From the NCBI GenBank assembly GCA_001304105.1, contig LJUR01000002.1, positions 1-62,586 on the forward strand: 62,586 nucleotides of DNA, written 5' to 3'. This DNA is from Deltaproteobacteria bacterium SM23_61 (GTDB taxonomy: Bacteria; Desulfobacterota; SM23-61). A program made the position numbers and the translations under genes. Below the pieces are notes generated by a model. It searched no databases. It was given only the letters and a program-made list of their open reading frames with translations, and had not been told where the DNA came from. The number at the start of each line of letters is the position of its first letter. Position 1 is the first letter of the stretch. Positions 15,813 to 57,805 of this stretch are shown piece by piece.

Positions 15813-15847
15813 TAAAAAACCTAAAGCTCTCCGCAAGTTAGTATAAA

Positions 15848-17600: not shown

Positions 17601-17610
17601 CCTTTTTCTG

Positions 17611-17698: not shown

Positions 17699-17725
17699 AT
17701 GGGAAGGCCGGAGTCAAACACTTTA

Positions 17726-20698: not shown

Positions 20699-20727
20699 CT
20701 TTTTCCCCCTTTCGCTCAGGGCGGCAT

Positions 20728-44260: not shown

Positions 44261-44361
44261 CCCCTCGGCTTTTACCCAAATCCCGTCGGAACACCCCAAA
44301 ACAAAAAACTGATGGGGATACAGGTGAACTTAGCGCGGCTGCGCCGCAACCAAAGAAGATC

Positions 44362-44410
44362 ACCCCCTCCCTACCCTCCCCCCTCGAGGGGGAGGGGGAA
44401 GGTGGGGGGG
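44362..44410. repeat. C-tract/G-tract palindromic element (CCCTCCCCCCTCGAGGGGGAGGG type)
   Basis: Homologous copies lie at 51043-51092, and looser ones at 55126-55215. The flank shares gcggc.g.gccgcaacc.aa with the 51-kb copy. Confidence 0.8.
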
Positions 44411-44440
44411 ACGCGGATAAACACAGATAAAACAGGAATA

Positions 44441-45478: not shown

Positions 45479-46233
45479 GATTGCCCCTCCTTGAAATACT
45501 TCATGTAAAGCTCTTCCAATGTGTACTGCCCTTCCTCGAGTCCAAGCTTTTCTTTGGCCAGGTCCTCGATCCGGCCCACGGCGACCATGTTCCCTTTGAG
45601 CATGATCCCGATCCGGGAGGAGATCTTCTGGACCTGGTCCAGGAGATGGGAGGACAAGAAGACGGTGATTTTCTTGTCCCGGCTCAGAGACTGGATCAGA
45701 TTCAGCATCTGGAGCGACCCGTCGGGGTCCAAGCCCAGGGTCGGTTCATCGAGAAAGACCACCTGGGGATTTTTCAGCAGGACTTCCGCAATCCCCAGGC
45801 GCTGCCGCATGCCCCGGGAGAACTCCCCCACCTTCTTCTTCGGCTCCGGTTTCAGGTCCACCAGGTTCAGCAGCTCTTCGATTTTGACCAGGGCCTCTTC
45901 GTCCGGAATTCCGTTCAACCGGCTGATGAACAGGAGGTTCTGGACCGCATTCATGTCGTCATAGAAACCCACGTTTTCGGGAAGATAGCCCACCACCCGC
46001 TTGACTTTCAACGCCTCCCGGGTGGGGTCGAAGCCGCATACCCAGGCTCTCCCCGAAGTGGGCTCGCTCAGGCCCAGCAACATGAGGAGCGTGGTGGTCT
46101 TGCCGGCTCCGTTCGGCCCCAGAAACCCGAAAACTTCTCCCTCGTTGATCTTGAGGGTCAGGGCGTTTACGGCCGTCTGTTCCCCGTATACCTTGGTCAG
46201 GTCCTGGGTCTCGATGATCGTCTGTCCGTTCAC
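45475..46233 (-). CDS. ABC transporter ATP-binding protein
   Basis: Walker A GPNGAGKTT, signature FSRGMRQRL, Walker B VVFLDEPT. GTG start 5 nt after GGAGGAG. Confidence 0.9.
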   Translation of the reverse strand: MNGQTIIETQDLTKVYGEQTAVNALTLKINEGEVFGFLGPNGAGKTTTLLMLLGLSEPTSGRAWVCGFDPTREALKVKRVVGYLPENVGFYDDMNAVQNLLFISRLNGIPDEEALVKIEELLNLVDLKPEPKKKVGEFSRGMRQRLGIAEVLLKNPQVVFLDEPTLGLDPDGSLQMLNLIQSLSRDKKITVFLSSHLLDQVQKISSRIGIMLKGNMVAVGRIEDLAKEKLGLEEGQYTLEELYMKYFKEGQS

Positions 46234-46234
46234 G

Positions 46235-47458
46235 TTATCTCCTCCCCAGCCACAGGAACAGCGCGCCCAGCCCGGCAATGACCAGCACGATGATGATGAT
46301 TCCGATCCATCCCCAGGCGGCGGAAGTTTTTACCGACACCCTCATTTCCACTGTTTTGCTGCTGCCTTTCTCCCCGTCGACGGAAAGACCCACCGAATAA
46401 TCACCCACCAGGGCCTGACCCGCTGGAGTAATGATTACCTCGACCTGCTTCATGGCATCCGGTTCGAGGGCGTCGATCTTCTCCGGCTTGAACTCCACCT
46501 TCCAGTTCTCCGGCTTGAAAGAGCTGAAACTGATATTCTTGTTCACCGCCGAGCCGGTGTTCTTCACAAAAAGCGACATCTGGGCCGCCTTGCCGGCGAG
46601 AGCCTCCAGAGACAGAAGGCCGGTGGGAGTCCCGGCATCGAGCTTATAGATTCCCGTGAGAATGACCGTCAGCTTCACATCCTGTTTCTTATCCCCCGAA
46701 GTAATCCCGACGACGATGGGGAAGGAACCCGCCTTGGCATCCCTGGGCGGGGTCACTTCCACGGCCACGTTCTGGCTGGAGCCGCCTTTGATCCGGAAGC
46801 TGGAGATCTGCTTCTGCTCGTAGGCCGGCTTGAAGCTGACCTCCCATTTGGCCGGGGCCTGGGCGGAGAGGTTGAAGTTCCGATCCGCTTCACTCTTGTT
46901 GTTGACTTCCAGGGAGAATTCGAACTTGGCGTCCGTCTGCCCCTTGAGGACGGGGTAGGAGGTGGTTACGGTGAAGTCTTCCCCCATCGCTGTCCTTTCG
47001 CGCACGGTCACGTTGATCTTCTGGGTGGAGGTAAACCTCCCGTCCTCGGTCTGAGCGTCGATCTGGAAATGGTACTCTCCGGGCTTGACCTTCTTATCCG
47101 GCTCGGCCAGGAAGGTCAGGGTCCGGGCCTTGGTGGCCGGCACCGGAACAGCAGCGACAATGAAATTGGGGGCCTTGAGGGAAGCCCTCCAGCCCTTGGG
47201 AACCTGGCTGATTTTCATGGAAATATTCTCGTCCCTTTTTCCCTTATTCTCCGCGGTAAGATCCATGCGCACGGATTCGCCCGGAGGTACGATGACCCCG
47301 GAATATTCGGTGTAAATGGCGATTCCCCTCTCTGGACGAGGGATAACATCTTTATCCTTGTCCGACTGGGCCGTCGCCGTCCCGCCGATCGACAATGACA
47401 ATAGAATAAGGATAGAGAAAATCAAAACCGATTTCAGCCCAATGCTTCCCCGACGCAT
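46235..47458 (-). CDS. Exported, C-terminally membrane-anchored protein with repeated beta-sandwich (NEW3/CARDB-like) domains
   Basis: Signal peptide, three similar ~100-aa modules (...KPGEYHFQID..., ...KAGSFPIVVG..., ...LVGDYSVGLS...), and a C-terminal TM helix. Confidence 0.6.
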   Translation of the reverse strand: MRRGSIGLKSVLIFSILILLSLSIGGTATAQSDKDKDVIPRPERGIAIYTEYSGVIVPPGESVRMDLTAENKGKRDENISMKISQVPKGWRASLKAPNFIVAAVPVPATKARTLTFLAEPDKKVKPGEYHFQIDAQTEDGRFTSTQKINVTVRERTAMGEDFTVTTSYPVLKGQTDAKFEFSLEVNNKSEADRNFNLSAQAPAKWEVSFKPAYEQKQISSFRIKGGSSQNVAVEVTPPRDAKAGSFPIVVGITSGDKKQDVKLTVILTGIYKLDAGTPTGLLSLEALAGKAAQMSLFVKNTGSAVNKNISFSSFKPENWKVEFKPEKIDALEPDAMKQVEVIITPAGQALVGDYSVGLSVDGEKGSSKTVEMRVSVKTSAAWGWIGIIIIVLVIAGLGALFLWLGRR

Positions 47459-47808: not shown

Positions 47809-48693
47809 CTAGGCCGCTCCGGCTTCTTTCAGCTTTTCCACGATGGAATCCTTGTCCCAGGCGCCCACATGGCGGTACATTTCCTTGCCCGTCTTGTCAA
47901 AAAAGATCAGGGTAGGAATGAGTTGGACCCGGTATTCCCGGGCGAGGTCTTTGTATTCGTACACGTCGATGATGAGAATTCTGGCCTTCTCGGCAAGCTC
48001 TTTTTCGATCTCTTTCAAAATCGGTCGAAGCTGTCGGCAGGGCATGCAGGAATTGGCGCCGAAGTCCACCAGAAGCGGCTTCCCGCTCTTGATCGCCTGC
48101 TGAAATTCCTCATTGGTGTTGGTGGGGGGCGGGAGGGCGGTTAAATCCTTCAGGCGGCTCTCATTGATGTCGATTTTCGCCTTATTCCTTAAAGAAGCCA
48201 GGTATTCCTCGACCTTTTCCTTCCCCTTGAGCTCCCGGATGGCCTCCTCGATCATCGGGGTCGCCTCGGCCAGGGACTTCTTTCCCATCTGGTCCTTGTG
48301 CTGCTTGTAGACTTCGGCCACCTCCTTGGGGTCGACCTGGATCTTGTCCAGGACTTCCTTCTTCACCAGGTTCTGCATGATGGACAGGTCAATGTCTTCC
48401 CCCCTGGCCTCAGGATCGGCCTTCACCCCCAATCTCTTCGCTTCCTGCAGGACGACTTCCTTGGTGATGACCTGGTCGAGATATTGCCTGGGCTCTTCCC
48501 GGAATACTTCCTGGAAGGGCGCGGGGATTTTTCTCAGCTCCCGGTCGAACTGGGCAACGGTGATCTTCCGGTCGTTGACCATGGCCAGGACTTGGCGCTC
48601 CGGGTTCCAGGTGAAAAATTTCAGATAACCGAATAGGATGACTCCAACCACCACCGCCAAGACCGGAATGATCCATTTCCAATGCTTTTTCAT
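47809..48693 (-). CDS. Membrane-anchored SurA-N-like chaperone domain fused to a thioredoxin domain (CMPC)
   Basis: N-terminal TM helix, then VNDRKITVAQFDREL... (SurA_N-like). The C-terminus is LLVDFGANSCMPCRQLRPIL...IPTLIFF (thioredoxin). Confidence 0.8.
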   Translation of the reverse strand: MKKHWKWIIPVLAVVVGVILFGYLKFFTWNPERQVLAMVNDRKITVAQFDRELRKIPAPFQEVFREEPRQYLDQVITKEVVLQEAKRLGVKADPEARGEDIDLSIMQNLVKKEVLDKIQVDPKEVAEVYKQHKDQMGKKSLAEATPMIEEAIRELKGKEKVEEYLASLRNKAKIDINESRLKDLTALPPPTNTNEEFQQAIKSGKPLLVDFGANSCMPCRQLRPILKEIEKELAEKARILIIDVYEYKDLAREYRVQLIPTLIFFDKTGKEMYRHVGAWDKDSIVEKLKEAGAA

Positions 48694-48932
48694 TCAACGA
48701 TTCCTCTCATCCTCACGGATAAAATCTCCCCCTCACCCTTGCCCTGAGGCTGTCGGATTATCAAAATCATAAGCCTGGTTCGGGAGTTAAGAAATTGCGG
48801 ATCGATAAGATCGGCATCCCTGACAATACATCAACGAATCTTAACCCAGATTAGCAGGAATGTGAGGATTTGTCCATGAAAAGCCGGAACGATTCATCGA
48901 ATTGCCCCCAGCAGGGTTTATCGATTTCTTCC

Positions 48933-50135
48933 TCAATCCTTATCGACCCCCGCCGCGCTGATCCACCCCTTCACTTCTTCATCCTCGGGAAGAGCCTTCT
49001 CCATAGTTTGCAACTTGAAAAGGAAGTGGTTCCCCTGGATCCCGGCCTCTTTCGCCCGTTTCAGTTCTTCCTGGAGGGCAGTTCTTTGACGGGTGATCTC
49101 GCGGATTGACCGCTCACGGTGGGGGTTGACCTTATCGGGTTGCCTCTTCCTGGCTGTCTCCAGGCCGCGAATATAAAGGTCGAGGCCGTCGATCCTTTCC
49201 TGAAGGTACTGGACCTCTCCGGCGTCCCGGAAGGGCTTGGATGGGTCTTCCAGGGTCAACTGCAGCCGGCCCACATACATCCCTTTGCGGGAAGACTGAA
49301 AAATGTGGGTCATTCCGGCCCGAACGGCTCTCCGGGTAAAGCGTCCTTCATGACCTCCCAGGATGAAGTGAATCCCCGGTAGCTCTTTGGCCACCCTCTG
49401 GTCCTTGTAAAGGCCCAGGTCGGAAATAATAATGGCCAGGTCGGCTTTTCCCTTGATTTTCCCCAGGGTCTCCCTGGCCGCATCGATCGGGTCGGCGATC
49501 AGGATCCTTCCTTCATTGGCCCGCTGGATGGCCGGGCTGATCTCCGGTCCTGATTCGGGCGGCAAAAGCCCGACGAAAGCGATCCGCACCCCCCCCACTT
49601 CCTTTATCACATAGGAAGGAAAGATGGGGGATTTGGTGGAAGGATCCAGAAGGTTGGCAGATATGAGGGGAAGTCCCTGGGAATATTCCTGCCGCAGGAA
49701 GTCCACGCCCTGCAGGAGGTCCAGGCACCCCACGTTCACCGCCGCAGCGCCCATGTGGCGGTAGGCGCGGCCGATGATCTGGGCCTTCTTCAGCGCCTTC
49801 TCAGAATCGGAATCGTTTCGAAAGCTGAAGAAAAGATCCCCGGAATCCACCACCAGGGTTCGCTGATTTTCCCTTTGAACTTTCTCCACCCAAGCCACCC
49901 GCCGGGCCAGACCGCCCAGCACCCGGTCCCCTCAGGTCGGGCAGGGGAGGATGTAGCCGGTCACGTTGTTGGTGTGGAGAATCAGAATCTCCGTCTCTCC
50001 TGATTCGGCAGGCGGGGCGGGAAAAAGAAAAAGGGACCAGGCAAAGATGAAAGAAAGGATCCCCCAAAAACTCTTGGTTGCCGGAAACCATTTTTTCAAA
50101 GCGATGACCTCATCTTTGAATCTTTTCAATATCAT
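48933..50135 (-). CDS. Exported degenerate 5'-nucleotidase/metallophosphoesterase-like protein with predicted selenocysteine (C-P-T-U; TGA at 49932-49934)
   Basis: ORFs 49932..50135 and 48933..49922 share a frame across the TGA. Read-through gives ILILHTNNVTGYILPCPT-U-GDRVLGGLARRV...VVDSGDLFFS. The paralog at 52923..54314 has a TGA at the homologous position. The downstream ORF has no ATG or signal peptide of its own. Confidence 0.7.
49903..49918 (-). promoter_or_regulatory. SECIS-like hairpin
   Basis: The RNA reads UGGGC-GGUCUG-GCCCG and starts 13 nt after the UGA. The GGUCU loop resembles the E. coli fdhF SECIS apical loop. Confidence 0.6.
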
Positions 50136-50204
50136 CGGAATTATTGTAACACAACTTTACCGATCGCCGGCAGGAGCAGGCCGCCGAGGCGTGATGAGTC
50201 GCCC

Positions 50205-50621
50205 CTACCCTTCCTGGGCGGACAAAAAGCCGATGATTTTTTCCCGGATTTGATCCCTCAACTTCCGGAAGAAGGAGATCTTCTCCTCCTCAGTGCCCTT
50301 GACGGTCGCGGGATCGGGAAAGCCCATGTGCATCCTCCGCGTTCCGCCGAAGAAAACCGGGCAGCTTTCCGCCGCGTGATCGCACAGAGTTATGACAAAA
50401 TCGAATCTCTCATCCGCAAACTCGTCAATCGACTTGGATCGATGCCGGGAAATATCGATTCCCGCCTCTTTCATCGCAGCGATGACCAGGGGATTAACGG
50501 AAGAGGGCTCTGTCCCGGCGGAGAAAGCCTGCACCTTCCCCGCCAGGTCATGATTGACCAAGCCCTCGGCCATCTGGCTCCGGGCGCTGTTATGGGTGCA
50601 GATGAAGAGAACCCGTTTCAC
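50205..50621 (-). CDS. arsC: Arsenate reductase, thioredoxin-coupled LMW-PTP type
   Basis: CTHNSARS P-loop plus the downstream Cys pair (LCDHAAESCP). Confidence 0.9.
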   Translation of the reverse strand: MKRVLFICTHNSARSQMAEGLVNHDLAGKVQAFSAGTEPSSVNPLVIAAMKEAGIDISRHRSKSIDEFADERFDFVITLCDHAAESCPVFFGGTRRMHMGFPDPATVKGTEEEKISFFRKLRDQIREKIIGFLSAQEG

Positions 50622-50738
50622 TCTATGCTTCTCCTTCTATTCATCGCAATCGGAATCCCCATTTTCCCCTTTGCCGGTTGTCGGTTCCGGCTTTCAGGGT
50701 TCGCACGGGCATTTTTCTCCTATGGTTTTTTAATTTCC

Positions 50739-50972
50739 TTACTGGACCATTTTCTTGATCTCTTCCACGGAGGGAAGTTTCCCGGCCACTTTCACGGTTC
50801 CATCCACCACCAAGGCCGGGGTGATCATGACCCCGTAGCTGCTGATCTGTTTGATGTCTTTTATCTTCAAGACTTCGGCCTCGATGCCGAGTTCTTTGAC
50901 CGCCTGCCTGGCTCGATCCTCGAGCTGGTTGCACTTGGGTCAACCCATTCCCAAAACTTCGACTTTTTTCAT
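50739..50972 (-). CDS. Thioredoxin_3-type small redox protein (redox-active disulfide protein 2 family) with a U-x-x-C active site (TGA at 50940-50942)
   Basis: Not in the ORF track, because the TGA is at codon 11. The translation is MKKVEVLGMG-U-PKCNQLEDRARQAVKELGIEAEVLKIKDIKQISSYGVMITPALVVDGTVKVAGKLPSVEEIKKMVQ. The family consensus is GxGCxxC. Confidence 0.85.
50911..50925 (-). promoter_or_regulatory. SECIS-like hairpin
   Basis: The RNA reads GCUCGA-GGA-UCGAGC and starts 14 nt after the UGA. Confidence 0.55.
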
Positions 50973-51042
50973 TTTTTCCTCCCTAAATCTTGTATTGGAC
51001 ACAGATGAACACAGCGCGGCAGAGCCGCAACCCAAACGGAAT

Positions 51043-51092
51043 CCCCCCCTCCCTCCCCTCCCCCCTCGAGGGGGAGGGTTAGGGTGGGGGGG
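51043..51092. repeat. C-tract/G-tract palindromic element (same family as 44362-44410)
   Basis: ccccctccctcccctcccccctcgagggggagggttagggtggggggg. It is flanked by ACACRGAT-type short repeats (50996-51016, 51184-51217) and a CTCTGTG unit (51271-51293). Confidence 0.8.
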
Positions 51093-51305
51093 ATGCTTTT
51101 TGCCCAACAGAACTTAACGACTTTGCAAAACAGTAGTAGAGATTGACCTCACGCCTTACTCATCACTTTTCACTGCTTTTATTGGGACACGGATGAACAC
51201 GGATACACGCAGATAAGGATCAATCAAAAAAAAATAAAAGATTTTGCCAAATAGCGCGTAATCTTTTTCTTTGTGCTCTCTGTGACCTCTGTGCTTAAAT
51301 CGTTT

Positions 51306-52358
51306 TCAGAAAATGAAATTCCCGGTGAACCATCCTACCAAGGTCCCCAGAATCGTAATCAAGGGAACATAAACCAACCCCTTTTTCAGGCCAAAGACCT
51401 TCAGGATGGCCAGCATGTTGGGGAGGCTCATCCCGGGGCCGGTCAGGAGAAGGGCCAGGGCCGGCCCTTTGCCCATGCCCATTTCCATCAGCTTATGAAC
51501 GAAGGGTGCTTCGGTCATGGTGGCCATGTACATGATCTGGCCGATCAATGTGGCCAGGAAAGAAGGGAATATGCCCGACCCGCCCAGCCAGCTCTCGATC
51601 CACTGCTGGGGAAGAAGCTTCCCGATCACTCCGACGACGAACACCCCTCCCAACAACAAGGGAAAGATGATCCGGACAAACCACCAGCTCTCAGTCATCC
51701 ACTGGCGCATTTCCTCACCGGATTTGACCTTCCAGGCATAAAGGGCGACGATGACCATCCCCGCAGCCCAGACATACACTTTATGCAGGAAGGGCCCCTT
51801 TTGGACAAGGTAATTGGGGGCCAGAAGGTCGGCTACGATCAAGAGAAGGAGGATGACATCCTTGCGGGCCACGATCCTTTTCCCTCCAGGGTGGATGTCC
51901 ACTGCGGTCACTCTCTTGATCTCTTCCTTGCGGAAGGCGAGACTCATGACCCAACCCACCACGAAGGCCATGGCCAGGGCTGAAAGGACTCGGACCACCA
52001 CCATCTCCGTCCCCAGGATAGCCCCGGTATAGACCAGGGCCAGGATGTTGGCCGCCGGGGCCACCCAGAGAATGATGAAGGCCGCCCCGATCCCGCTTCC
52101 GCCGTAATACAGGCCGCTGGAAACGGGGATCACCGTGCAGGAGCAGGCGGCCACGAAAAAACTGCCCCCGCTGGCCAGGGTGAAGGATCTCAGTTTATTG
52201 GCGGCACTTCCCAGGTAATAAATGATGGTTTCCTTGGATATAAACGTAACCATGGCCCCGGCCAGAAGGAAAGCCGGTATCAGGCAGGTAATCACATGAA
52301 GGGCGATGTAATCCTGTAAAGCTTGCAAACCGGCATAAATCAATTCCCAGAAGAACAT
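51306..52358 (-). CDS. Predicted permease (ArsP/DUF318-type, PF03773-like)
   Basis: Multi-TM protein with ...VITCLIPAFLLAGAM...FFVAACSCTVIP... typical of this permease family. ATG at 52358 (alternative GTG at 52409). Confidence 0.75.
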   Translation of the reverse strand: MFFWELIYAGLQALQDYIALHVITCLIPAFLLAGAMVTFISKETIIYYLGSAANKLRSFTLASGGSFFVAACSCTVIPVSSGLYYGGSGIGAAFIILWVAPAANILALVYTGAILGTEMVVVRVLSALAMAFVVGWVMSLAFRKEEIKRVTAVDIHPGGKRIVARKDVILLLLIVADLLAPNYLVQKGPFLHKVYVWAAGMVIVALYAWKVKSGEEMRQWMTESWWFVRIIFPLLLGGVFVVGVIGKLLPQQWIESWLGGSGIFPSFLATLIGQIMYMATMTEAPFVHKLMEMGMGKGPALALLLTGPGMSLPNMLAILKVFGLKKGLVYVPLITILGTLVGWFTGNFIF

Positions 52359-52407
52359 TTTCTTGCGCTTCCTTTTCCCAATTTTGATGATCTCGTGAAA
52401 AGTCCTC

Positions 52408-52484
52408 ACTCCGGTGAAAACCGGAGTCCAGGATATTTATAGACCTTTGAAAATACAGGATTCCGGCTTCCGCCGGAATGACGG
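52408..52484. repeat. Double-hairpin REP-like element (GGAATGACG / CGTCATTCC family)
   Basis: ctccggtgaaaaccggagtccagga...caggattccggcttccgccggaatgacgg. Related copies lie at 55289-55372, 56807-56877, 57731-57805 and 62541-62586. Confidence 0.8.
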
Positions 52485-52522
52485 GAAGGATGGTCTTAGG
52501 ACTTTTACGAGCTCATCAATTT

Positions 52523-52846
52523 TTATATTTGCGCCAGGACCTTTCTTTGCTCCATCAGCTCCCGCTTCAGGAGCAGTCCCACTTTGTCCAATATCTCAAA
52601 GATTTCCGGGCCTTTGACCTTCACCATCACCTTGACCCCGTCTTTGCGGGTGGTGATCAGGTGGCTCTTCTGCATCGTGGAAATGTGCCGGGAAATATTG
52701 GACTGTTCCCCGTTGATGGCCGGCACAATTTCACAGATACATCTCTCCCCGTGGCGGAGCAGTTCCAGGATCTTCAAGCGCGTGGGCTGGGCAAGAGCTT
52801 TCAGGACTTCCGCCTTTAAATAAACCGCCCTTTCTTGCATATTCAT
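52523..52846 (-). CDS. arsR: ArsR/SmtB-family metalloregulator
   Basis: LKALAQPTRLKILELLRHGERCICEI...SNISRHISTM (HTH with the CxC metal site). Confidence 0.9.
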   Translation of the reverse strand: MNMQERAVYLKAEVLKALAQPTRLKILELLRHGERCICEIVPAINGEQSNISRHISTMQKSHLITTRKDGVKVMVKVKGPEIFEILDKVGLLLKRELMEQRKVLAQI

Positions 52847-52922
52847 TCTCCATGCATTTATGATTAATTAATCATAAATGCAAAAAAAATATGAGTCAAG
52901 CGATTTCTTAAACTCGGTCCCT

Positions 52923-54314
52923 TCACTTCGAGGCTGGGCAGCGCACTTTCGTGAGGGAGGGGGCGTAATCGAAGTTGGGGCTCTTGGCCGGGTTGTGGCA
53001 GAGGAGGCACTGCTTTTCGCCCACGGGGGGAAGCTTCTTCCCATCTTCTGGATGTCCCCTCCCGGGCCCATGGCAGGATTCACACTGGACATTCTCCAGC
53101 ACATCCCCAAAGCCGGAAACCTCCCCGAATCCGGTGGTATGGCAGGGAAGGCAGGTGTGGTCTCTTTCTCTCTTTTCACCGACCAGGGTTTGATAGGCCT
53201 TGGCATGGCCGGTCTTTTTCCAGTTCTCGTGCTGCGGCTGATGGCAGGAAAGGCAGGATGCCCCACCCATGTAATCGGAGACCGGGTAGGCATAGGTACC
53301 CTTTTGCATCCAGGGATCTTTTTCTGGGGAGCCGTTTTTCTTTTCCGCAAAATGCAGGGGCTTGGAGTCAGCCCGGAACTGGTTCACCAGTTTGGCCGTT
53401 TGGGGGTGGTCCTTATAGAAATCCCGTAGAGTTATGATCTGGTAATTGGACAAGAGGCGCGTTTCGTCCGGTTTCTCCTTGAGGAAAAACTCCATCTGCC
53501 CGAGATACTCTCCCCGGGTCCCGGCGGTGAGGATCTGGGCGTTATTGACCTCCACCGGCTGCCTTTTAAGCCCGCGTTCATGCCCGCTGACCACGAAGTA
53601 AACCTCCCGGAACGTTTCGGCGAGTTTCCGTTGCTCACTCTCATCCATGTGGGTAATAGCAATGATGACTTTGCTTTTTTTCTTTTTCAACTCACCGATC
53701 ACCTGCCTGGCCGCCTCGAGGGGGTCGGTTAGCCGATAAGCCGCTTTGTCATGGGGGTCCAGGCTTCCGGAAAAGCGGTTTGAAAGAAGCCCGAAAAGCC
53801 CGACCCGGATGCCCCCCTTTTCCTTGATGAGGTAAGGCCGGAACACCGGCTTTTTTGTCTTCAGGTCCTGGAGGTTGGCGAGGAGAAAGGCGAATTTCGC
53901 CTTTTGGCTCATTTTCTTCAGTTCTGCGATCCCCCAGGAGAGATCCACCTCCCCCGGAGTGAAGGCATCGTATCCCATGAGGTTGTAGGTTTGCAGGAAT
54001 AGGTTCGCCTTCAGGGCGGTAAGGTCCCGGTCTCTTTTGGGCAGGCCAAAAATTTCATGCCCGGCGGAATAGAGAAGGTCCCCGGAGTCCACCAAAAGGA
54101 CATTTTTTTTGTCTTTGCGCAGCTTTTCCAGGAAGGAAGCCCGCCTGGCCAGACCGCCAAGCTTGCCCCCCCCTCAGCCGCAGGGCTCGTACTCGCCGTA
54201 GAGGTTCGAGCTGAAGACCAGGGTGATGATCTGCTCCGGCTTCACCCCGGGGGGCTGCCCCCAGGAATTGAAGGGGATCAGGCAAAGGAAGAAAAAAATC
54301 AAAAGTCTTTTCAT
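52923..54314 (-). CDS. Exported degenerate metallophosphoesterase-like domain with predicted selenocysteine (C-G-U; TGA at 54174-54176), fused to a C-terminal tetraheme cytochrome c
   Basis: The frame from ATG 54314 gives MKRLLIFFFLCLIPFNSWG(signal)...VFSSNLYGEYEPCG-U-GGGKLGGLARRA...LLVDSGDLLYS and continues into ORF 52923..54095. The C-terminus has CLSCH, CLPCH, CESCH and CLLCH. Confidence 0.75.
54145..54160 (-). promoter_or_regulatory. SECIS-like hairpin
   Basis: The RNA reads UUGGC-GGUCUG-GCCAG and starts 13 nt after the UGA. Geometry and loop match the paralog. Confidence 0.6.
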
Positions 54315-54368
54315 GAAAAAGTCCAAGCAATGGTGATTACGCTCTTCATTCTAGCATTCCCGTTTGGA

Positions 54369-55055
54369 TCAGTCCTTATCTTTCTTGCCCTTTGCCGCAT
54401 TTTCGTCCTTGGAAGACCCCGCGGGGGTTTTCCCGAAATTATCCCTCAGGATCTCCAGGGCCCTGATCACTTCCAGCCTGCCCACATGGGTCGCCTTTTG
54501 ATCTCCATGGACGATCACGCAGGAGGGGGTGGAGCGAATCTGATCTTCCTGCAGGTAACGATTCCAGAGGCTGAAAACCGGGTTCACATCGACGGGCTTC
54601 AGGGCGATCTCTTTTTCTGTCAGCAGATTGACCAGCTGGTCTTTATCGACCATCCTTTGCCGCGCCGCTTCAAAGAGAACCCTTCTCGTATGTAAGGCGG
54701 AATCAAAATCATTTTTCTGCCCCAAGGCGGAGAGAAAATACCGGACATACAAAACGGTATGCTCGCTGGCGGGGACATCGATAAAAGTGAGATGGACGGC
54801 TCCATCCTTGACCAAATCGAGGAGGAGGGGTTCAAGGTCGGGTTCCATGTCCCGGCAGGGGGAGCAGAAATAATCGCTGTAGAGCCGCACCTCGATCGTG
54901 CCGGTCCCGAAAGAAGGCAGAAAGTCTTCCTGCCCCCCCGTCGTTTCCCACCCGGCCACCCCCGAACCGAAAATCAGAAGAGCGGCCCAGGGGATCATCG
55001 CGATCCATTTCATGAATTTTTGGTTCCATTTGGGCTTCCGAATAAACCCATTCAT
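54369..55055 (-). CDS. Exported DsbA-like thioredoxin-fold oxidoreductase (CSPC)
   Basis: Signal/anchor sequence, YSDYFCSPCRDMEP active site, and a helical insertion typical of DsbA-like proteins. Confidence 0.8.
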   Translation of the reverse strand: MNGFIRKPKWNQKFMKWIAMIPWAALLIFGSGVAGWETTGGQEDFLPSFGTGTIEVRLYSDYFCSPCRDMEPDLEPLLLDLVKDGAVHLTFIDVPASEHTVLYVRYFLSALGQKNDFDSALHTRRVLFEAARQRMVDKDQLVNLLTEKEIALKPVDVNPVFSLWNRYLQEDQIRSTPSCVIVHGDQKATHVGRLEVIRALEILRDNFGKTPAGSSKDENAAKGKKDKD

Positions 55056-55125
55056 ACATCCTCCATCGGCAGCAAAATCTAAGAGCTAAAAGCTAGCCAA
55101 ATATATTTGAAATTTTTCTCTTGAA

Positions 55126-55215
55126 CCCTCCCCCCTTGATGGGGGAGGGGGAGGGTGGGGGTGAATCCGGAATGTATCCCCCTCCCCTTTATCCCCTCCC
55201 GCCAGGGGAGGGGAT
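55126..55215. repeat. Two C-tract/G-tract palindromic elements
   Basis: ccctccccccttgatgggggagggggagggtggggg and atcccctcccgccaggggaggggat. Confidence 0.75.
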
Positions 55216-55432: not shown

Positions 55433-56746
55433 TCAAAAATAGTAGCGGGCCCGGAATTCCAGCCGGTAATCATTGGGCTTTTCCCCGAATTCCGTTTCGT
55501 CCCCCCCGACCAGGAACATGGTCTTGAGGCGCAGTTCCAGGTTGGTAATGCCCGTATAGGCAACCTCGGGGGCGATGGAAAAGCTGGGATCTCGAAGATT
55601 TACAATCGTGGTTAGGGCCGGCGTGAAATAAAGAATATCGAAGGGCTCCTTCTGGCTGACCCGCAGGTAGAGATAGTCCCTCATGGGGTTGGGCCGGCTG
55701 TAATTCCCCTGGCTCAGGTTCAGTGCTCTTGCCAGGAGAGCATCGCTCCCTGTGGCCAGGTATTGATCATAGGCCCGGTCGACGAAGCGGTAAAAATCCT
55801 GGAACTCGCTTTTGTTGAACCCCGTCCCGTTCCGATAATACTCGAGGATATAGGTTGTCTCCCGCTGGCTCAGGTATCGCAGTCCCAATAGGTAGCTGAC
55901 GGTATCACTGGTCAAGCTGAGGATATTTCCCTGCGAGTCGGTGTATCTCTTTTGGAAATCCTCGATGTAGGCGAACTCGCCATGAACCTCGAAATTTGAA
56001 GTCATATTGCGGGAGAAGTCCACCCCGTACCGGGTGGTCCGGCTCCCGCCCGTAAAGACAATGAAATCGATATCCGTGTCATAGAGAAGGAGGTAAAGCT
56101 TGGCGGCGATGTTGGCCTGGTTGGTCTTGCCGAAATCGTCATTGATTCCTTCCAGGACCGGCAGGAGAACAGGAGTAAAGGAAAGGGTCTTCAAGGGTCC
56201 GGAAAAACTCCGGATCCAGTCGGCGGAAAGAACCCAGAACCCCTCCAGGGCCAGATCCGGCTCATCGGGGTCCTTCGGCCGGTCAATGAAGGCCACCGGG
56301 TTCCAGGCGTATCCTTTTCCCCACTTCAGCACCTTCTTGCCCGCATCCATGGTCAGTGCATGGGAGGGCTTCAGGGACAGGAAGGCCTCGTAAGGCGTAA
56401 GATCATCCTCCCAGCCCAGGTAGGTGTTGTTCAGATCATAGCTGAGCCGCACGAAAAAGCGGGCGTTGTCTTTCTCGTAACTCCCATCGACCAGGAGTTT
56501 GAAATTGGATTCCCCGGTGGTTTTCCCTTCATCCCGGTTGTAGAACTTCAGCTTGTAGAGCGCTGCATCCTGGTCTTGAACGTTCAGGACCGGCCGGAAC
56601 TCCCCGTATCCCCCCACGTGGTAGGGCTTCTTTTCGATCTCCGAGATGTCGAACTTGTATTCTTCCTTCTTTTCTTCCGCCCGGCTCAAGCAGGGTAGAG
56701 AAAGAATGAAGATCCAGAAGATGATCGAATAGATGGGCCGGCTCAT
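55433..56746 (-). CDS. Outer-membrane beta-barrel protein (porin-like)
   Basis: Signal peptide, alternating amphipathic beta pattern, and C-terminal ...EFRARYYF ending in an aromatic residue. Confidence 0.7.
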   Translation of the reverse strand: MSRPIYSIIFWIFILSLPCLSRAEEKKEEYKFDISEIEKKPYHVGGYGEFRPVLNVQDQDAALYKLKFYNRDEGKTTGESNFKLLVDGSYEKDNARFFVRLSYDLNNTYLGWEDDLTPYEAFLSLKPSHALTMDAGKKVLKWGKGYAWNPVAFIDRPKDPDEPDLALEGFWVLSADWIRSFSGPLKTLSFTPVLLPVLEGINDDFGKTNQANIAAKLYLLLYDTDIDFIVFTGGSRTTRYGVDFSRNMTSNFEVHGEFAYIEDFQKRYTDSQGNILSLTSDTVSYLLGLRYLSQRETTYILEYYRNGTGFNKSEFQDFYRFVDRAYDQYLATGSDALLARALNLSQGNYSRPNPMRDYLYLRVSQKEPFDILYFTPALTTIVNLRDPSFSIAPEVAYTGITNLELRLKTMFLVGGDETEFGEKPNDYRLEFRARYYF

Positions 56747-56806
56747 AGGAGTTCCGTCAAGTTATTAATGTCTCCATAATAATGACCACGTAACCTTCTC
56801 AAGACC

Positions 56807-56877
56807 CGTTATTCCCCGGCTTGACCGGGGAATCCAGAAGGGCGCTGGATGCCCGCTTAAAACATGCAGGCATGACG
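56807..56877. repeat. Double-hairpin REP-like element
   Basis: ttattccccggcttgaccggggaatccag...ctggatgcccgc...gcaggcatgacg. Confidence 0.75.
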
Positions 56878-56930
56878 AATAATAAGAAGTCGAAAAAAGG
56901 AAATCCCAACACCATTAAACTGCCAGCCGG

Positions 56931-57662
56931 CTATTTCCGCAGGGAATCGATGTTGGGCATGAAGGTCAGGGTAAAAACCTCATCCTTGAAATCTCTTTTC
57001 TTGATCTGGGCGTAGATCATGACGGACTTGTAGCCCTTGTACAAAGGGCTGTCCGTTTCCATGACCGAGGGCCGCACGATCTCTCGCCCAAAATCTCTCA
57101 TCTCCTTGAAATACAGGGTCTTGATGAGCATGTCCGCCTCGGTGCGACATTCGATTTTGGTGGGCAGTTTTTTATTTTTATCCGCCCACATCTTCAGCCG
57201 GTCGTAGGCCACGGTTTTGTTCTTGGCTTTGAGCTGAAGAAAATAGTCGTTCCCGATCTCTTCCACCTTTTCCACCTCGTATTCCGCCGCGTAATCCAGC
57301 TGGAGGATATCGGAGTTATTAAAAACCCCCCCCACCACGGACTGGAGGCTGGTGATGCGGATGGGCTTCCCCACGTTGGGGATGTAGAGCCACATGTTCT
57401 CTCCCACCCGGAGGGTGCTCCGCCCCTTTTCGCTAGCCGGAGCAAGAAACAGGGCGGCCACCTTATCCACCCCTTTCTTGACCGAAAAGAGGACAAATTC
57501 CTTCTTCCGACCGTCGGGCTCCACGTTGATGAGCTTCCGGTACATCTCAAACGACTCGGGATTGAGATTCCGGTCAATCTGTTTCAAGAGCTGCGTTCCG
57601 TCCAAGGCAAAGGCCGGGACGGCAAAGATCAAGGCGATAATCAGAGTAATGATTTTTAGCAT
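56931..57662 (-). CDS. LolA-like outer-membrane lipoprotein-sorting protein family (periplasmic)
   Basis: Start at MLKIITLIIALIFAVPAFA (signal peptide). The body is typical of the LolA_like family often paired with FtsX-type ABC systems. The longer ORF N-terminus (MDSRFHGNDE) is a translation of the REP element. Confidence 0.75.
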   Translation of the reverse strand: MLKIITLIIALIFAVPAFALDGTQLLKQIDRNLNPESFEMYRKLINVEPDGRKKEFVLFSVKKGVDKVAALFLAPASEKGRSTLRVGENMWLYIPNVGKPIRITSLQSVVGGVFNNSDILQLDYAAEYEVEKVEEIGNDYFLQLKAKNKTVAYDRLKMWADKNKKLPTKIECRTEADMLIKTLYFKEMRDFGREIVRPSVMETDSPLYKGYKSVMIYAQIKKRDFKDEVFTLTFMPNIDSLRK

Positions 57663-57730
57663 CTTCCTTTCCTCTCTCTCAGGCGTAATTCCATTTTGTC
57701 GTACCTTACCCATTCGAAAAATCTTTCGCT

Positions 57731-57805
57731 CGTCATTCCCGTGAAAACGGGAATCCACGAATTGCAGATAAAAAAGCTGGATTCCTGCTTGCGCAGGAAT
57801 GACGG
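57731..57805. repeat. Double-hairpin REP-like element (best-preserved copy)
   Basis: cgtcattcccgtgaaaacgggaatccacg-17nt-ctggattcctgcttgcgcaggaatgacgg. Confidence 0.85.

What the first reader, a model, noticed from the sequence alone, without database searches (positions are those of the whole stretch)
47809..55055. Candidate undescribed extracytoplasmic selenol/thiol redox module built around two Sec-containing pseudo-phosphoesterases
Seven exported or membrane redox genes lie within 7.2 kb, all on the minus strand:
- DsbA-like (CSPC);
- Sec-metallophosphoesterase-like domain fused to a tetraheme cytochrome c;
- ArsR;
- ArsP-type permease;
- UxxC thioredoxin-like protein;
- ArsC;
- a second Sec-metallophosphoesterase-like paralog, followed by a SurA-N/thioredoxin (CMPC) fusion.

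Each Sec-bearing paralog therefore has an exported thioredoxin-fold partner immediately adjacent, and an arsenic-type operon containing a third selenoprotein sits between them. I do not recognise this architecture (degenerate 5'-nucleotidase/SoxB-like scaffold, C-x(1-2)-U, multiheme cytochrome, Dsb/Trx partner) as any characterised system. SoxB, the sulfur-oxidation thiohydrolase, belongs to the same fold family. A role in periplasmic chalcogen or metalloid (S/Se/As) chemistry is therefore a reasonable but unproven inference.
Basis: partly seen in the sequence, partly recalled or inferred. Interest (0 to 1): 0.88.

Follow-up and report, generated by a model that had tools for sequence, protein, structure and literature searches.

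The report
Catalogued selenoprotein pair flanking arsenic operon
Two exported selenocysteine proteins built on a disabled 5'-nucleotidase fold, each beside a thioredoxin-like gene, flank an arsenic-resistance operon; the family is already catalogued but has no known function, and the arsenic link gives it a testable one.

Summary
The genes and the three in-frame TGA codons are real. All three read as selenocysteine. The evidence is fdhF-like hairpins after the TGA, Cys at the same position in orthologues, and frame conservation across phyla.

The family is not undescribed:
- Protein A (52923-54314) passes NCBIfam NF041198, "UshA-like (seleno)protein, PCGU". This family has appeared in selenoproteome surveys since 2008.
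- The fused tetraheme cytochrome is the usual architecture. It occurs in more than 560 species genomes.
- Protein B (48933-50135, CPTU, no cytochrome) is a divergent paralogue, below the cutoffs of both curated UshA-like families.

C-G-U/C is invariant in 80 relatives, whereas the old metal ligands survive in only about 70%.

No function is published. New here:
- In this Desulfobacterota clade a DsbA-like gene always precedes A.
- arsC always precedes B, and a SurA_N/thioredoxin gene always follows it.
- A second genome keeps the order A, ars genes, B.
- Some ~1200-aa proteins appear, on near-cutoff Pfam hits, to fuse UshA-like, DsbA-like and tetraheme domains.

Across the wider family the neighbours differ. 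The best guess is a periplasmic Cys/Sec reductase acting on arsenate or a related oxyanion, like the metallophosphoesterase arsenate reductase Car1. This is unproven.

The parts
54369..55055 (-). Exported DsbA-like protein (Pfam Thioredoxin_4), active-site motif C-S-P-C. It is the conserved upstream partner of UshA-like A.
   Evidence: Pfam PF13462, E=1.7e-7. Orthologues lie directly upstream of A in L001-L003, L083, L084, L085 and L097. The CxxC motif is conserved in the alignment.
52923..54314 (-). UshA-like selenoprotein A. It has a signal peptide, a degenerate 5'-nucleotidase N-domain with P-C-G-U, and a C-terminal tetraheme cytochrome c (4 x CxxCH).
   Evidence: Read-through translation. 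NCBIfam NF041198, 336.5 bits against a cutoff of 275; Pfam Cytochrome_C554, E=2.6e-12. The GenBank product P0001 (AMJ94_00535, 'hypothetical protein') starts after the TGA.
54174..54176 (-). In-frame TGA read as selenocysteine 47 of protein A.
   Evidence: The TGA is conserved in 74 related loci, and Cys is found in 8. C45, G46 and U/C47 are invariant in 80 of 80 sequences.
54129..54173 (-). SECIS-like hairpin of A. The inner stem CUUGGC/GCCAGG carries a GGUCUG loop at 54143-54162.
   Evidence: MFE -29.6 kcal/mol. The same hairpin occurs in 20 relatives, with one pair kept through paired synonymous changes.
52854..52881 (.). 28-bp perfect palindrome GCATTTATGATTAATTAATCATAAATGC, the presumed ArsR operator. 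It overlaps the -10 box of a sigma-70-like promoter (52899..52871).
   Evidence: Sequence. Promoter scan, 10/12 matches. The palindrome is unique in the window, with 0 matches expected by chance. Its core also occurs in L083 and L087.
52523..52846 (-). ArsR/SmtB metalloregulator with a C-I-C motif.
   Evidence: Pfam HTH_5, E=1e-11; NCBIfam NF033788, 79.6 bits against a cutoff of 55.
51306..52409 (-). ArsP_1-family permease with a C-S-C motif.
   Evidence: Pfam PF03773, E=1.5e-68. It scores below the cutoffs for SaoE and SO_0444.
50739..50972 (-). Cytoplasmic Thioredoxin_3 / MTH895-ArsE family selenoprotein, U-P-K-C. The TGA is at 50940-50942.
   Evidence: Translation. TIGR00412, 108.5 bits against a cutoff of 62. 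The L098 orthologue also has TGA, and the L083 orthologue has Cys.
50205..50621 (-). Thioredoxin-coupled (LMW-PTPase type) arsenate reductase ArsC.
   Evidence: Pfam LMWPc, E=4.3e-20. TIGR02691, 133.5 bits, below the cutoff of 174.3. It lies directly upstream of UshA-like B in 4/4 genomes.
48933..50135 (-). UshA-like selenoprotein B. It has an N-terminal anchor or signal, a degenerate 5'-nucleotidase N-domain with C-P-T-U, a Cys at the former motif III Asn position, and a coiled-coil tail. It has no cytochrome.
   Evidence: Translation. NF041198, 221.8 bits (cutoff 275); NF049981, 78.1 bits (cutoff 140). 28% identical to A. Cys-form relatives carry CAVC, CPTC or CETC.
49890..49934 (-). TGA (49932-49934) and the SECIS-like hairpin of B, with a GGUCUG loop.
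   Evidence: The DNA is 79% identical to the corresponding stretch of A (repeat D7).
47809..48693 (-). Membrane-anchored SurA_N-like domain fused to a thioredoxin domain (C-M-P-C). It is the conserved downstream partner of B.
   Evidence: Pfam Thioredoxin, E=1.6e-20, and SurA_N_3, E=5.3e-10. It lies downstream of B in L088, L089 and L090.
55433..57758 (-). LolA_like protein (56931-57758) and a 437-aa family-less outer-membrane-like protein (55433-56746). They recur next to Trx_4/UshA-A in relatives.
   Evidence: Pfam LolA_like, E=1e-38. The same pair occurs in L084 and L087.
44513..47458 (-). NPCBM_assoc/NEW3 protein, an ABC ATPase and an ABC-2 permease. This is a recurrent flank of the cluster.
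   Evidence: Pfam. The same trio lies directly upstream of Trx_4/UshA-A in L085 and downstream of B/SurA-Trx in L088-L090.

Best explanation
A and B belong to the already catalogued but functionally uncharacterised UshA-like selenoprotein superfamily. They are exported proteins that keep the 5'-nucleotidase N-domain fold but have lost hydrolytic dimetal chemistry. Their functional centre is the invariant Cys-x(1-2)-Sec pair in the loop after strand 1.

Shown:
- the fold;
- the degenerate metal ligands;
- the invariance of C-G-U/C;
- selenocysteine decoding;
- the tetraheme fusion in A;
- the clade-specific Trx-fold partners;
- the conserved position of both genes around an ArsR-controlled ars operon.

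Inferred:
- The Cys/Sec pair cycles between selenol/thiol and selenenylsulfide while reducing a periplasmic substrate.
- It is re-reduced through the four hemes in A, and through the adjacent DsbA-like and SurA_N/thioredoxin proteins for both A and B.

Most speculative: in this lineage the substrate is arsenate or a related metalloid or chalcogen oxyanion. The mechanism would be that reported for Car1, a metallophosphoesterase-fold arsenate reductase in which one Cys of a C-x-C pair attacks arsenate and the other resolves the adduct. This would place arsenate reduction outside the cytoplasm, complementing cytoplasmic ArsC.
For: Family and fold:
- NF041198, 336.5 bits.
- Foldseek of a Cys-orthologue model (pLDDT 89.6) hits CD73/UshA N-domains at E~1e-22.

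Selenocysteine: with Cys orthologues.

Functional centre:
- C45, G46 and U/C47 are invariant in 80/80 sequences.
- The former ligand positions D79, E122, H222 and H245 are kept in only 54-56 of 80.
- Motif I Asp/His is replaced by Asn/Tyr, and the motif III Asn is replaced by Glu.

Electron wire:
- A has four CxxCH motifs.
- The same tetraheme module is fused to peroxiredoxin/redoxin domains in other proteins.

Trx partners: plus the ~1200-aa proteins in which Pfam places UshA-like, DSBA/Thioredoxin_4-like and tetraheme domains together (near cutoff).

Arsenic link:
- arsC lies directly upstream of B in 4/4 genomes.
- arsR, arsP, ACR3, arsC or an ArsM-like gene lies within 8 kb of A in L001, L002, L081, L083, L085 and L087.
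- The full order Trx_4, A, ars genes, B, SurA/Trx is kept on one contig of a second genome.
- An operator and promoter precede arsR.

Precedent: Car1 is a metallophosphoesterase As(V) reductase that needs Cys74 and Cys76 (PMC12124457). LMW-PTPase-derived ArsC is a second case of a phosphatase fold turned arsenate reductase (established knowledge).
Against: - No biochemical data exist for any family member.
- The arsenic context is confined to the window's clade (about 53% identity or more). Among 80 diverse loci only L001 and L002 carry ars genes nearby. The nearest neighbours elsewhere are heterogeneous: housekeeping genes, multiheme cytochromes, or the nuo operon.
- The ArsR operator occurs only before arsR, not before the DsbA-like/A pair.
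- B has a conserved upstream intergenic stretch with a TACAAT box, so it may have its own promoter.
- Relatives also sit beside PhsA/PsrA-like and TtrA-like molybdoenzymes. This fits sulfur or selenium chemistry as well as arsenic.
- Homology to Car1, and equivalence of the Cys positions, could not be tested because neither the paper nor the sequence was available.
- The 3D position of C-G-U relative to the old metal site and the hemes was not measurable. The loop has a lower pLDDT of about 69.
Confidence: 0.35

Rival explanations
1. A and B do sulfur or selenium chalcogen chemistry. They would be periplasmic selenol/thiol reductases or transferases acting on polysulfide, thiosulfate, tetrathionate, persulfide or selenite-derived species. 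They would work alongside Psr/Phs/Ttr-type molybdoenzymes, loosely like the fold relative SoxB, which cleaves a sulfur-bound sulfonate.
For: - PhsA/PsrA-like or TtrA-like molybdopterin enzymes, with FeS, cytochrome b or c7 and TorD-like chaperone genes, lie beside Trx_4/UshA-A or B/SurA-Trx in L081, L084, L085 and L089.
- Rhodanese, MauE/DoxX and UGSC selenoprotein genes lie downstream in the 45-47% clade.
- SoxB is a detectable sequence relative (76 bits, E=1.4e-21).
- The source bin name suggests sulfidic estuarine sediment (my own knowledge of the SM23 bins, not checked here).
Against: - There is no molybdoenzyme in this window's cluster.
- The SoxB score is far below its cutoff of 550, and the SoxB-type dimetal site is degenerate.
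- The TtrA-like operons in L081 and L089 are themselves interleaved with arsC and ACR3. They do not discriminate between sulfur and arsenic.
Confidence: 0.25
2. The family consists of general periplasmic antioxidant or disulfide reductases. A selenol peroxidase or disulfide reductase would be fed with respiratory electrons through the tetraheme domain. The ars neighbourhood would then be incidental, or reflect a shared stress regulon.
For: - The same Cytochrome_C554-type tetraheme module is fused to AhpC/TSA-Redoxin domains in several proteins (P0159, P0161, P0164, P0172-P0174).
- Most family members, in many phyla, have no conserved specialised neighbours. That fits a generic housekeeping substrate.
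- One distant member follows the nuo operon.
- C-x-x-U/C and C-x-U/C are classic redox motifs.
Against: - It does not explain the conserved placement around ars genes in this clade through several rearrangements.
- The fold has no relation to known peroxidases.
- No peroxidase-type catalytic residues were identified.
Confidence: 0.2
3. C-G-U is a binding site rather than a cycling redox centre. It would bind a soft metal or metalloid (As(III), Hg, Cu) or an Fe-S cluster. The proteins would then act as periplasmic chaperones, sensors or sequestration proteins.
For: - C-x-C motifs bind As(III) in ArsR (established knowledge; this ArsR has C-I-C).
- CU and CC motifs in other selenoproteins have been argued to contact heavy metals (Haft preprint).
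- A Cys/Met-rich 71-aa protein follows A in L081 and L082.
- Residual Asp, Glu, His and His ligands survive in about 70% of members.
Against: - A covalently fused four-heme wire, Trx-fold partners, and CxxC in the B subfamily argue for electron transfer rather than passive binding.
- Selenocysteine is rarely used for pure binding.
Confidence: 0.1
4. There is no module. The DsbA-like/A pair, the ars operon and the B/SurA-Trx pair would be three independent units that lie together through synteny among close relatives.
For: - The ars operon has its own promoter and a unique operator.
- A is not preceded by that operator.
- REP-like palindromes separate some of the genes.
- The genomes that share the arrangement are related Desulfobacterota MAGs, so the observations are not independent.
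Against: - The association survives insertions and reordering in L081, L083, L085 and L089+L097.
- arsC next to B holds in 4/4 genomes.
- The Trx_4 partnership recurs in a distant clade with the opposite gene order, and the near-cutoff Pfam hits point to single-chain fusions.
Confidence: 0.15

Closest known systems
UshA-like (seleno)protein family, NCBIfam NF041198 (UshA_like_PCGU); 'COG0737 UshA-like, CxU' in Zhang & Gladyshev 2008 and the reviews PMC9312934 and PMC13188914
   Same: Protein A passes the curated cutoff. It has the P-C-G-U motif, the in-frame UGA and the C-terminal tetraheme region that the 519-position model appears to cover (A matches it in two stretches; B, which lacks the cytochrome, matches only positions 4-372). 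B is a clear relative (221.8 bits).
   Different: B falls below the cutoff, has C-x-x-U instead of C-x-U, and lacks the cytochrome. The family entry carries no function, and no gene-neighbourhood description was found in the papers searched.
UshA-like (seleno)protein family 2, NCBIfam NF049981 (CxxU)
   Same: B shares the CxxU spacing and the lack of a cytochrome domain.
   Different: B scores 78.1 bits against a cutoff of 140, and A scores 59.3. Neither is a member. B looks like a third subfamily, with a dozen or so 50%-identity clusters.
Car1 of Rufibacter tibetensis, a metallophosphoesterase-fold arsenate reductase (Shen et al. 2024, cited in PMC12124457)
   Same: Both have a metallophosphoesterase fold, a closely spaced Cys pair (C74-x-C76 against C-x-U or C-x-x-U), genes inside or beside ars operons, and thioredoxin-type partners.
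   Different: Car1 is cytoplasmic, has Cys only, has no hemes, and (from my memory of its abstract) keeps a working binuclear metal site. A and B are exported, use Sec and have degenerate ligands, and A is heme-wired. Sequence and structural equivalence was not tested.
E. coli UshA / human CD73 5'-nucleotidases
   Same: They share the N-terminal metallophosphatase fold (Foldseek E~1e-22, TM about 0.54). The GD, LEP, GG-x-AR and N147 motifs are recognisable.
   Different: In this family the motif I Asp/His, the motif III Asn/His and the second motif V His are replaced, and there is no 5_nucleotid_C substrate-binding domain. Phosphoesterase activity is therefore not expected.
SoxB thiosulfohydrolase
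   Same: It belongs to the same fold superfamily, is periplasmic, and handles an oxyanion bound to a carrier-protein thiol.
   Different: The score is 76 bits against a cutoff of 550. SoxB depends on a dimanganese site and has no Sec or heme, and no sox genes are present here.
ArsR / ArsP-type permease / MTH895-ArsE thioredoxin-like protein / LMW-PTPase ArsC operons
   Same: The central four genes are such an operon, complete with a palindromic operator. Sec forms of the small Trx-like protein are known.
   Different: Nothing unusual, except that exported UshA-like selenoprotein genes flank the operon on both sides.

Membership tests
UshA-like (seleno)protein, NF041198 | HMM score at or above the curated cutoff (275 bits) | tested here: met
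   A scores 336.5 bits. B scores 221.8 bits, so it does not meet the cutoff and is not filed as a member.
UshA-like (seleno)protein, NF041198 | P-C-G-U (or C-G-C) motif after strand 1 | tested here: met
   A has EPCG-TGA. C-G-U/C is invariant in 80/80 relatives. B has PCPT-TGA, a different spacing.
UshA-like (seleno)protein, NF041198 | UGA decoded as selenocysteine | tested here: inconclusive
   The computational support is strong: hairpins with a GGUCUG loop, Cys orthologues, and another Sec gene in the window. Decoding itself needs 75Se labelling or mass spectrometry.
UshA-like (seleno)protein family 2, NF049981 | HMM score at or above the cutoff (140 bits) | tested here: not met
   B scores 78.1 bits and A scores 59.3 bits.
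Functional 5'-nucleotidase / UshA | Complete dimetal ligand set (motifs I-V) and the catalytic His | tested here: not met
   In the alignment to 2z1a, the Asp is replaced by Asn, the His by Tyr, the Asn by Glu, the catalytic His by Val, and the second motif V His by Arg. Only about 70% of the family retains the remaining ligands.
Functional 5'-nucleotidase / UshA | C-terminal 5_nucleotid_C substrate-binding domain | tested here: not met
   There is no PF02872 hit. A tetraheme domain (A) or a coiled coil (B) takes its place.
SoxB thiosulfohydrolase, TIGR04486 | HMM score at or above the cutoff (550 bits) | tested here: not met
   A scores 76.4 bits and B scores 57.7 bits.
Car1-type metallophosphoesterase arsenate reductase | Metallophosphoesterase fold with two closely spaced essential Cys residues | tested here: inconclusive
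   The fold and the C-x-U or C-x-x-U pair are present. Whether the pair occupies the same structural position as Car1 Cys74/Cys76 was not testable, because the Car1 sequence and paper were unavailable.
Car1-type metallophosphoesterase arsenate reductase | Arsenate reductase activity coupled to thioredoxin | not testable with these tools
   This needs enzyme assays. Only the context (ars genes, Trx-fold partners) is available.
ars operon (ArsR-regulated) | ArsR/SmtB repressor with an upstream inverted-repeat operator, plus efflux permease and arsenate reductase genes | tested here: met
   - ArsR: NF033788, 79.6 bits (cutoff 55).
- Permease: ArsP_1, E=1.5e-68.
- Reductase: LMWPc.
- Operator: a 28-bp perfect palindrome over the -10 box.
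- ArsC scores 133.5 bits, below the TIGR02691 equivalog cutoff of 174.3.
MTH895/ArsE thioredoxin-like protein, TIGR00412 | HMM score at or above the cutoff (62 bits) and a CxxC/UxxC site near the N-terminus | tested here: met
   108.5 bits. The site is G-U-P-K-C at residues 10-14.

The most novel reading that the evidence does not exclude
The UshA-like selenoproteins are a new class of molybdenum-independent, periplasmic, heme-wired selenoenzymes. They would reduce oxyanions (arsenate or thioarsenate in this lineage, other chalcogen or metalloid species elsewhere) at a Cys-Sec pair grafted onto a phosphate-binding phosphoesterase scaffold. DsbA-like or Trx proteins would serve as dedicated recycling or maturation partners. 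That would be a third, extracytoplasmic route of arsenate reduction beside ArsC and ArrAB.
Probability: 0.2. Interest if true: 0.85.

Novelty: new member of a known kind. Interest (0 to 1): 0.5.

Why it matters
The UshA-like selenoprotein family has been listed in selenoproteome surveys since at least 2008 and occurs in hundreds of species across many phyla. None of the papers searched here assigns it a function.

This locus and its relatives supply concrete leads:
- an invariant C-G-U centre on a dead phosphoesterase scaffold;
- an intramolecular four-heme wire;
- clade-specific DsbA-like and Trx partners, possibly also fused into single chains;
- a conserved position around an ArsR-controlled arsenic operon.

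Together with Car1, the metallophosphoesterase-fold arsenate reductase reported in 2024, this turns an orphan family into a testable hypothesis. If confirmed, it would add an extracytoplasmic, selenium-dependent step to arsenic or chalcogen cycling in anoxic sediments. It would also show a third independent recruitment of a phosphatase fold for arsenate reduction.

A practical point: public gene calls for this family, including this contig's own product, start after the TGA and omit the active site.

Tried and rejected
1. **Structure of the window proteins.** These could not be predicted. The tools refuse a sequence with an internal stop or a U-to-C edit. A Cys orthologue (P0121) was modelled instead. 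No coordinates are returned, so the distances from C-G-U to the old metal site and to the hemes stay unmeasured.
2. **Family-wide neighbourhood conservation.**
   - All-vs-all clustering of flanking ORFs in 81 loci found only clade-level synteny.
   - Pfam scans of the nearest upstream and downstream neighbours found no dominant family.
   - I therefore rejected the idea that a Trx-fold partner defines the whole family.
3. **MFE comparison.** Downstream regions of Sec and Cys loci do not differ in folding energy (mean -17.8 against -17.1 kcal/mol), because the sequence is GC-rich. The argument for a SECIS rests on the positioned GGUCUG hairpin and on codon covariation, not on energy.
4. **Other island genes in the window.** I searched for CcdA, ACR3, FmdE, the molybdoenzymes, the radical SAM protein and the PF04060 FeS protein seen in relatives. 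None is present.
5. **Second ArsR operator.** A search for a second copy upstream of the DsbA-like/A pair found none.
6. **Direct BLASTP of the window DsbA-like protein against the fusion proteins P0206 and P0220.** There was no significant hit. The fusion evidence rests on Pfam DSBA/Thioredoxin_4 hits near their cutoffs.
7. **Car1 paper.** It could not be opened by PMC id or by DOI.
8. **Conserved basic residue between U and GG as an oxyanion loop.** It is present in only 61 of 81 sequences, so I did not use it.
9. **Olavius symbiont selenoproteome paper.** It does not mention the family.

Full report
**Observation.** The interval 47809-55055 holds eight minus-strand genes.
- A Thioredoxin_4/DsbA-like protein with CSPC lies at 54369-55055.
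- A 463-aa read-through protein (A, 52923-54314) has a signal peptide, the motif E-P-C-G-TGA (TGA at 54174-54176) and four CxxCH motifs.
- ArsR lies at 52523-52846.
- An ArsP_1 permease lies at 51306-52409.
- A 77-aa Thioredoxin_3 protein has G-TGA-P-K-C (TGA at 50940-50942).
- An LMW-PTPase-type ArsC lies at 50205-50621.
- A 400-aa read-through protein (B, 48933-50135) has L-P-C-P-T-TGA (TGA at 49932-49934).
- A SurA_N/thioredoxin fusion with CMPC lies at 47809-48693.

There are eight genes, not seven. ArsR is a regulator. ArsR, the small Trx-like protein and ArsC are cytoplasmic: their active sites start at residues 8-11, which leaves no room for a signal peptide.

**Are the TGAs selenocysteine codons?**
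- Both UshA-like genes have a hairpin 14-33 nt after the TGA, CUUGGC-GGUCUG-GCCAGG in A and CUGGGC-GGUCUG-GCCCGG in B. To my knowledge its apical sequence resembles the E. coli fdhF SECIS loop.
- The same hairpin is found in 20 relatives. One base pair is maintained by paired synonymous changes, Leu CUU/CUG with Arg AGG/CGG.
- In 82 related loci the aligned codon is TGA in 74 and TGT/TGC in 8.
- Database gene calls for more than 100 homologues all begin just after the TGA. This includes this contig's own product, P0001 (AMJ94_00535 of 'Deltaproteobacteria bacterium SM23_61').
- The Trx_3 orthologue in L098 also has TGA, and the one in L083 has Cys.
- The window carries a further Sec gene, GrdB-like, with TGA at 19610-19612.
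- No tRNA-Sec or sel genes lie in the window, which proves nothing either way.
- Sequencing error or true stops are very unlikely.

**Family assignment.**
- A passes the curated NCBIfam model NF041198, 'UshA-like (seleno)protein' (UshA_like_PCGU), at 336.5 bits against a cutoff of 275.
- B scores 221.8 bits on that model. It scores 78.1 bits on NF049981, 'UshA-like (seleno)protein family 2', whose cutoff is 140. It is a member of neither.
- 'COG0737, UshA-like, CxU' appears in the GOS selenoproteome table of Zhang & Gladyshev 2008 (PMC2398784). It also appears in the 2022 and 2026 reviews, which list family 2 (CxxU) as 'GenBank annotated'.
- None of these papers assigns a function. Further searches found no functional study.
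- So 'undescribed' is wrong for the family but right for the function and for the gene-cluster context.

**Anatomy.**
- An AlphaFold2 model of a Cys orthologue (P0121, pLDDT 89.6) matches the N-terminal metallophosphatase domain of CD73 and E. coli UshA (Foldseek E~1e-22, TM about 0.54). It has no counterpart of the 5_nucleotid_C domain.
- I aligned A to the T. thermophilus 5'-nucleotidase 2z1a:
  - the motif I Asp and His become Asn37 and Tyr39;
  - the conserved L-E-P follows, and C45-G-U47 comes immediately after it;
  - the motif III Asn and catalytic His become Glu122 and Val123;
  - the motif IV and V histidines (H222, H245) remain, but the second motif V His is Arg.
- In 80 full-length relatives from many phyla, C45, G46 and U/C47 are invariant, as are G53, G54 and N147. 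D79, E122, H222 and H245 are each kept in only 54-56 sequences.
- The selected feature is therefore the Cys-Gly-Sec triplet, not a metal site. 'Pseudo-phosphoesterase' is a fair description.
- B is 28% identical to A.
  - It has C-x-x-U. Its Cys-form relatives carry CAVC, CPTC or CETC.
  - It has an additional Cys at position 122 and Asp at 222.
  - It ends in a coiled coil instead of a cytochrome.
- Whether C-G-U lies at the former dimetal site could not be measured, because no coordinates are returned. The loop's pLDDT is about 69.

**Distribution.**
They include Desulfobacterota, Acidobacteriota, Eisenbacteria, Krumholzibacteriota, Fibrobacterota, Nitrospirota, Planctomycetota and others.
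- The scan used cytochrome motifs, so it could only find fused forms.
- A search with B against 1.84 billion representatives gave 5638 hits at E<=0.001 and 38 at E<=1e-30. These include cytochrome-less CGC and CxxC forms.

**Neighbourhood.** In the window's clade the context is conserved.

| Locus | Identity | Genes around the UshA-like gene |
|---|---|---|
| L001-L003 | 77-85% to A | Thioredoxin_4 directly upstream of A |
| L083 | 73% to A | Thioredoxin_4 upstream; Trx_3, FmdE, ArsP_1, Trx, DsbD_TM, LMWPc |
| L081 | 69% to A | LMWPc, ACR3; PhsA-like and TtrA-like molybdoenzymes |
| L084 | 62% to A | Thioredoxin_4 upstream; PhsA-like molybdoenzyme; LolA_like plus a 437-aa-type protein |
| L085 | 53% to A | Thioredoxin_4 upstream; ArsP_1; PhsA-like molybdoenzyme; NPCBM_assoc/ABC/ABC-2 trio |
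| L097 | 85% to A | Thioredoxin_4 upstream of A |
| L088-L090 | 73-81% to B | arsC upstream, SurA_N/Trx downstream, then NEW3 and an ABC ATPase (TtrA-like operon inserted before NEW3 in L089) |

- All three genomes with a close homologue of the Trx_4 protein have A next to it.
- L001 also carries ArsR, FmdE, CcdA and ACR3, L002 carries an ArsM-like gene, and L087 carries ArsR.
- One contig of a second genome (L097+L089) keeps the whole order: Trx_4, A, ArsR, ArsP, CcdA, ACR3, ArsC, B, SurA/Trx, TtrA-like operon, NEW3, ABC. Other genes are interspersed.
- The molybdoenzymes score best on PhsA or TtrA but fall below the cutoffs of those models.
- The window's own flanks (LolA_like plus a 437-aa protein, and NPCBM_assoc/ABC/ABC-2) recur with the cluster in relatives.

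Outside this clade the picture changes.
- The 45-47% clade has radA upstream. Rhodanese, MauE/DoxX and UGSC genes, or a TlpA-like FWASW-TGA selenoprotein, lie downstream.
- A distant Cys form follows the nuo operon and is immediately followed by a Thioredoxin_4/DSBA gene.
- Another clade sits among large multiheme cytochromes.
- Pfam scans of the nearest neighbours of 75 loci show no dominant family.
- Three ~1200-aa proteins (P0206, P0220, P0228) give Pfam hits to a DSBA-like domain and to the tetraheme module, and they match B in two separate stretches. P0206 and P0220 also hit Thioredoxin_4. In P0206, the only one whose sequence was read, the two UshA-like stretches carry CEC and CGC. The DSBA hits are near their cutoffs.

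**The ars unit.**
- A sigma-70-like promoter (TTGACT-17-TATGAT, 52899..52871) precedes arsR. Its -10 box is overlapped by a 28-bp perfect palindrome (52854-52881).
- That palindrome is unique in the window, and its core recurs in L083 and L087.
- No further minus-strand promoter-like site was found between arsR and the end of the SurA/Trx gene.
- The 69-nt arsC-B spacer is conserved in relatives and contains a TACAAT box. Co-transcription of B with the ars genes is therefore possible but untested.
- REP-like G/C-rich palindromes interrupt several spacers.

**Mechanism.** What is shown:
- both proteins are exported, Sec-containing and phosphoesterase-dead;
- the Cys-x(1-2)-Sec pair is invariant;
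- A carries a covalent four-heme wire;
- the Trx-fold partners are conserved in this clade, and both genes keep their positions around an ArsR-controlled operon.

What I infer is that the pair cycles between the reduced form and a selenenylsulfide while reducing a periplasmic substrate. Electrons would arrive through the hemes (A) and the Trx-fold proteins.

I favour arsenate or a related oxyanion in this lineage, for three reasons.
1. The synteny with ars genes.
2. Two phosphatase folds are already known to have become arsenate reductases, LMW-PTPase ArsC and Cdc25-type Acr2 (established knowledge).
3. A metallophosphoesterase-fold arsenate reductase, Car1, needs a C74-x-C76 pair (PMC12124457). 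The mechanistic details are from my memory of the Car1 abstract; the paper could not be opened.

The rivals are sulfur or selenium chemistry alongside Psr/Phs/Ttr-like enzymes, a generic heme-fed peroxidase or disulfide reductase (supported by tetraheme-peroxiredoxin fusions), a metal- or metalloid-binding role, and mere synteny. None is excluded.

**Verdict.**
It is a genuine Sec/thiol, extracytoplasmic, probably redox gene set, and its Trx partners are real in this clade.
- The protein family is already curated, the tetraheme fusion is its normal form, and the ars operon is ordinary.
- The value lies in the context-derived, testable hypothesis for a long-standing orphan selenoprotein family.

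Noticed in passing
window 19250-22062 (-): A GrdB-like glycine/sarcosine/betaine reductase selenoprotein B has an in-frame TGA at 19610-19612 (…VILTST-U-GSSTRCGA…). The frame continues for about 85 more codons. A Gly_reductase component B gene lies next to it at 20728-22062. This is a fourth Sec gene in the window.
   Followed up: partly
window 44350-44414, 51032-51102, 55125-55214: Three copies of a ~65-nt G/C-rich palindromic, REP-like intergenic element (…CCCCTCCCCCCTCGAGGGGGAGGG…). One sits inside the ars operon, between the permease gene and the Trx_3 gene. Similar elements occur in the spacers of related loci such as L088.
   Followed up: partly
window 52450-52484 and 57771-57805: A second repeated hairpin element (AAAATACAGGATTCCGGCTTCCGCCGGAATGACGG, 83% identical copies). 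One copy lies between arsR and the permease gene, and the other just upstream of the LolA_like gene.
   Followed up: no
window ~12000-18000: A low-GC island (0.36-0.40, against about 0.53-0.60 elsewhere). It encodes a 741-aa WD40-repeat protein (11954-14179) and a Sel1/ankyrin-repeat protein (15848-17140). It looks horizontally acquired.
   Followed up: no
L001 2745-3044 and 8620-8985; L002 2996-3322; L084 2000-2302: Small exported proteins of about 100 aa share a C-x-x-F…GPCG/F-x-K-x-L two-Cys motif. They recur just upstream of the Thioredoxin_4/UshA-A pair in relatives. No copy was seen in the window.
   Followed up: no
proteins P0159, P0161, P0164, P0172-P0174: The same Cytochrome_C554-type tetraheme module is fused to AhpC/TSA-Redoxin (peroxiredoxin) domains. 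This suggests a reusable heme-to-thiol electron-delivery module.
   Followed up: no
proteins P0206, P0220, P0228: Proteins of about 1200 aa combine two UshA-like domains, a DSBA/Thioredoxin_4-like domain (near the Pfam cutoffs) and the tetraheme module in one chain. In P0206, the only one whose sequence was read, the two UshA-like domains carry CEC and CGC.
   Followed up: partly
L007 11423-11980: A TlpA/ResA-like thioredoxin-fold gene lies directly downstream of a 45%-identity UshA-like gene. It has …ILINFWASW-TGA, an apparent U-x-x-C selenoprotein.
   Followed up: no
L081 9818-16065 (-) and L089 10475-15022 (+): A 1079-aa TtrA-like molybdopterin enzyme has Fer4_11 and cytochrome c7 partners. 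In L081 it sits in one gene string with arsC and ACR3. In L089 it sits directly after B/SurA-Trx. It may be an uncharacterised metalloid- or sulfur-reducing molybdoenzyme.
   Followed up: partly
L081 9482-9697, L082 2148-2363: A 71-aa Cys/Met-rich protein (…ESCCQGMPFADMM…CAEMMSRMKAMCCGS…) lies immediately downstream of UshA-A. It is possibly metal-binding.
   Followed up: no
window 50136-50204; L088-L090 equivalent spacers: The arsC-to-ushA-B spacer is conserved over about 45 nt (…CGATCGGTAAAGTTGTGTTACAATAATTCCGATG). It contains a TACAAT box. It could be a promoter or a regulatory site for B.
   Followed up: partly
window 52923-54095 (GenBank product AMJ94_00535): The public annotation calls only the 390-aa part after the TGA and names it a 'hypothetical protein'. 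All of the top 120 database homologues are truncated in the same way, so the active-site motif is missing from public protein records.
   Followed up: yes
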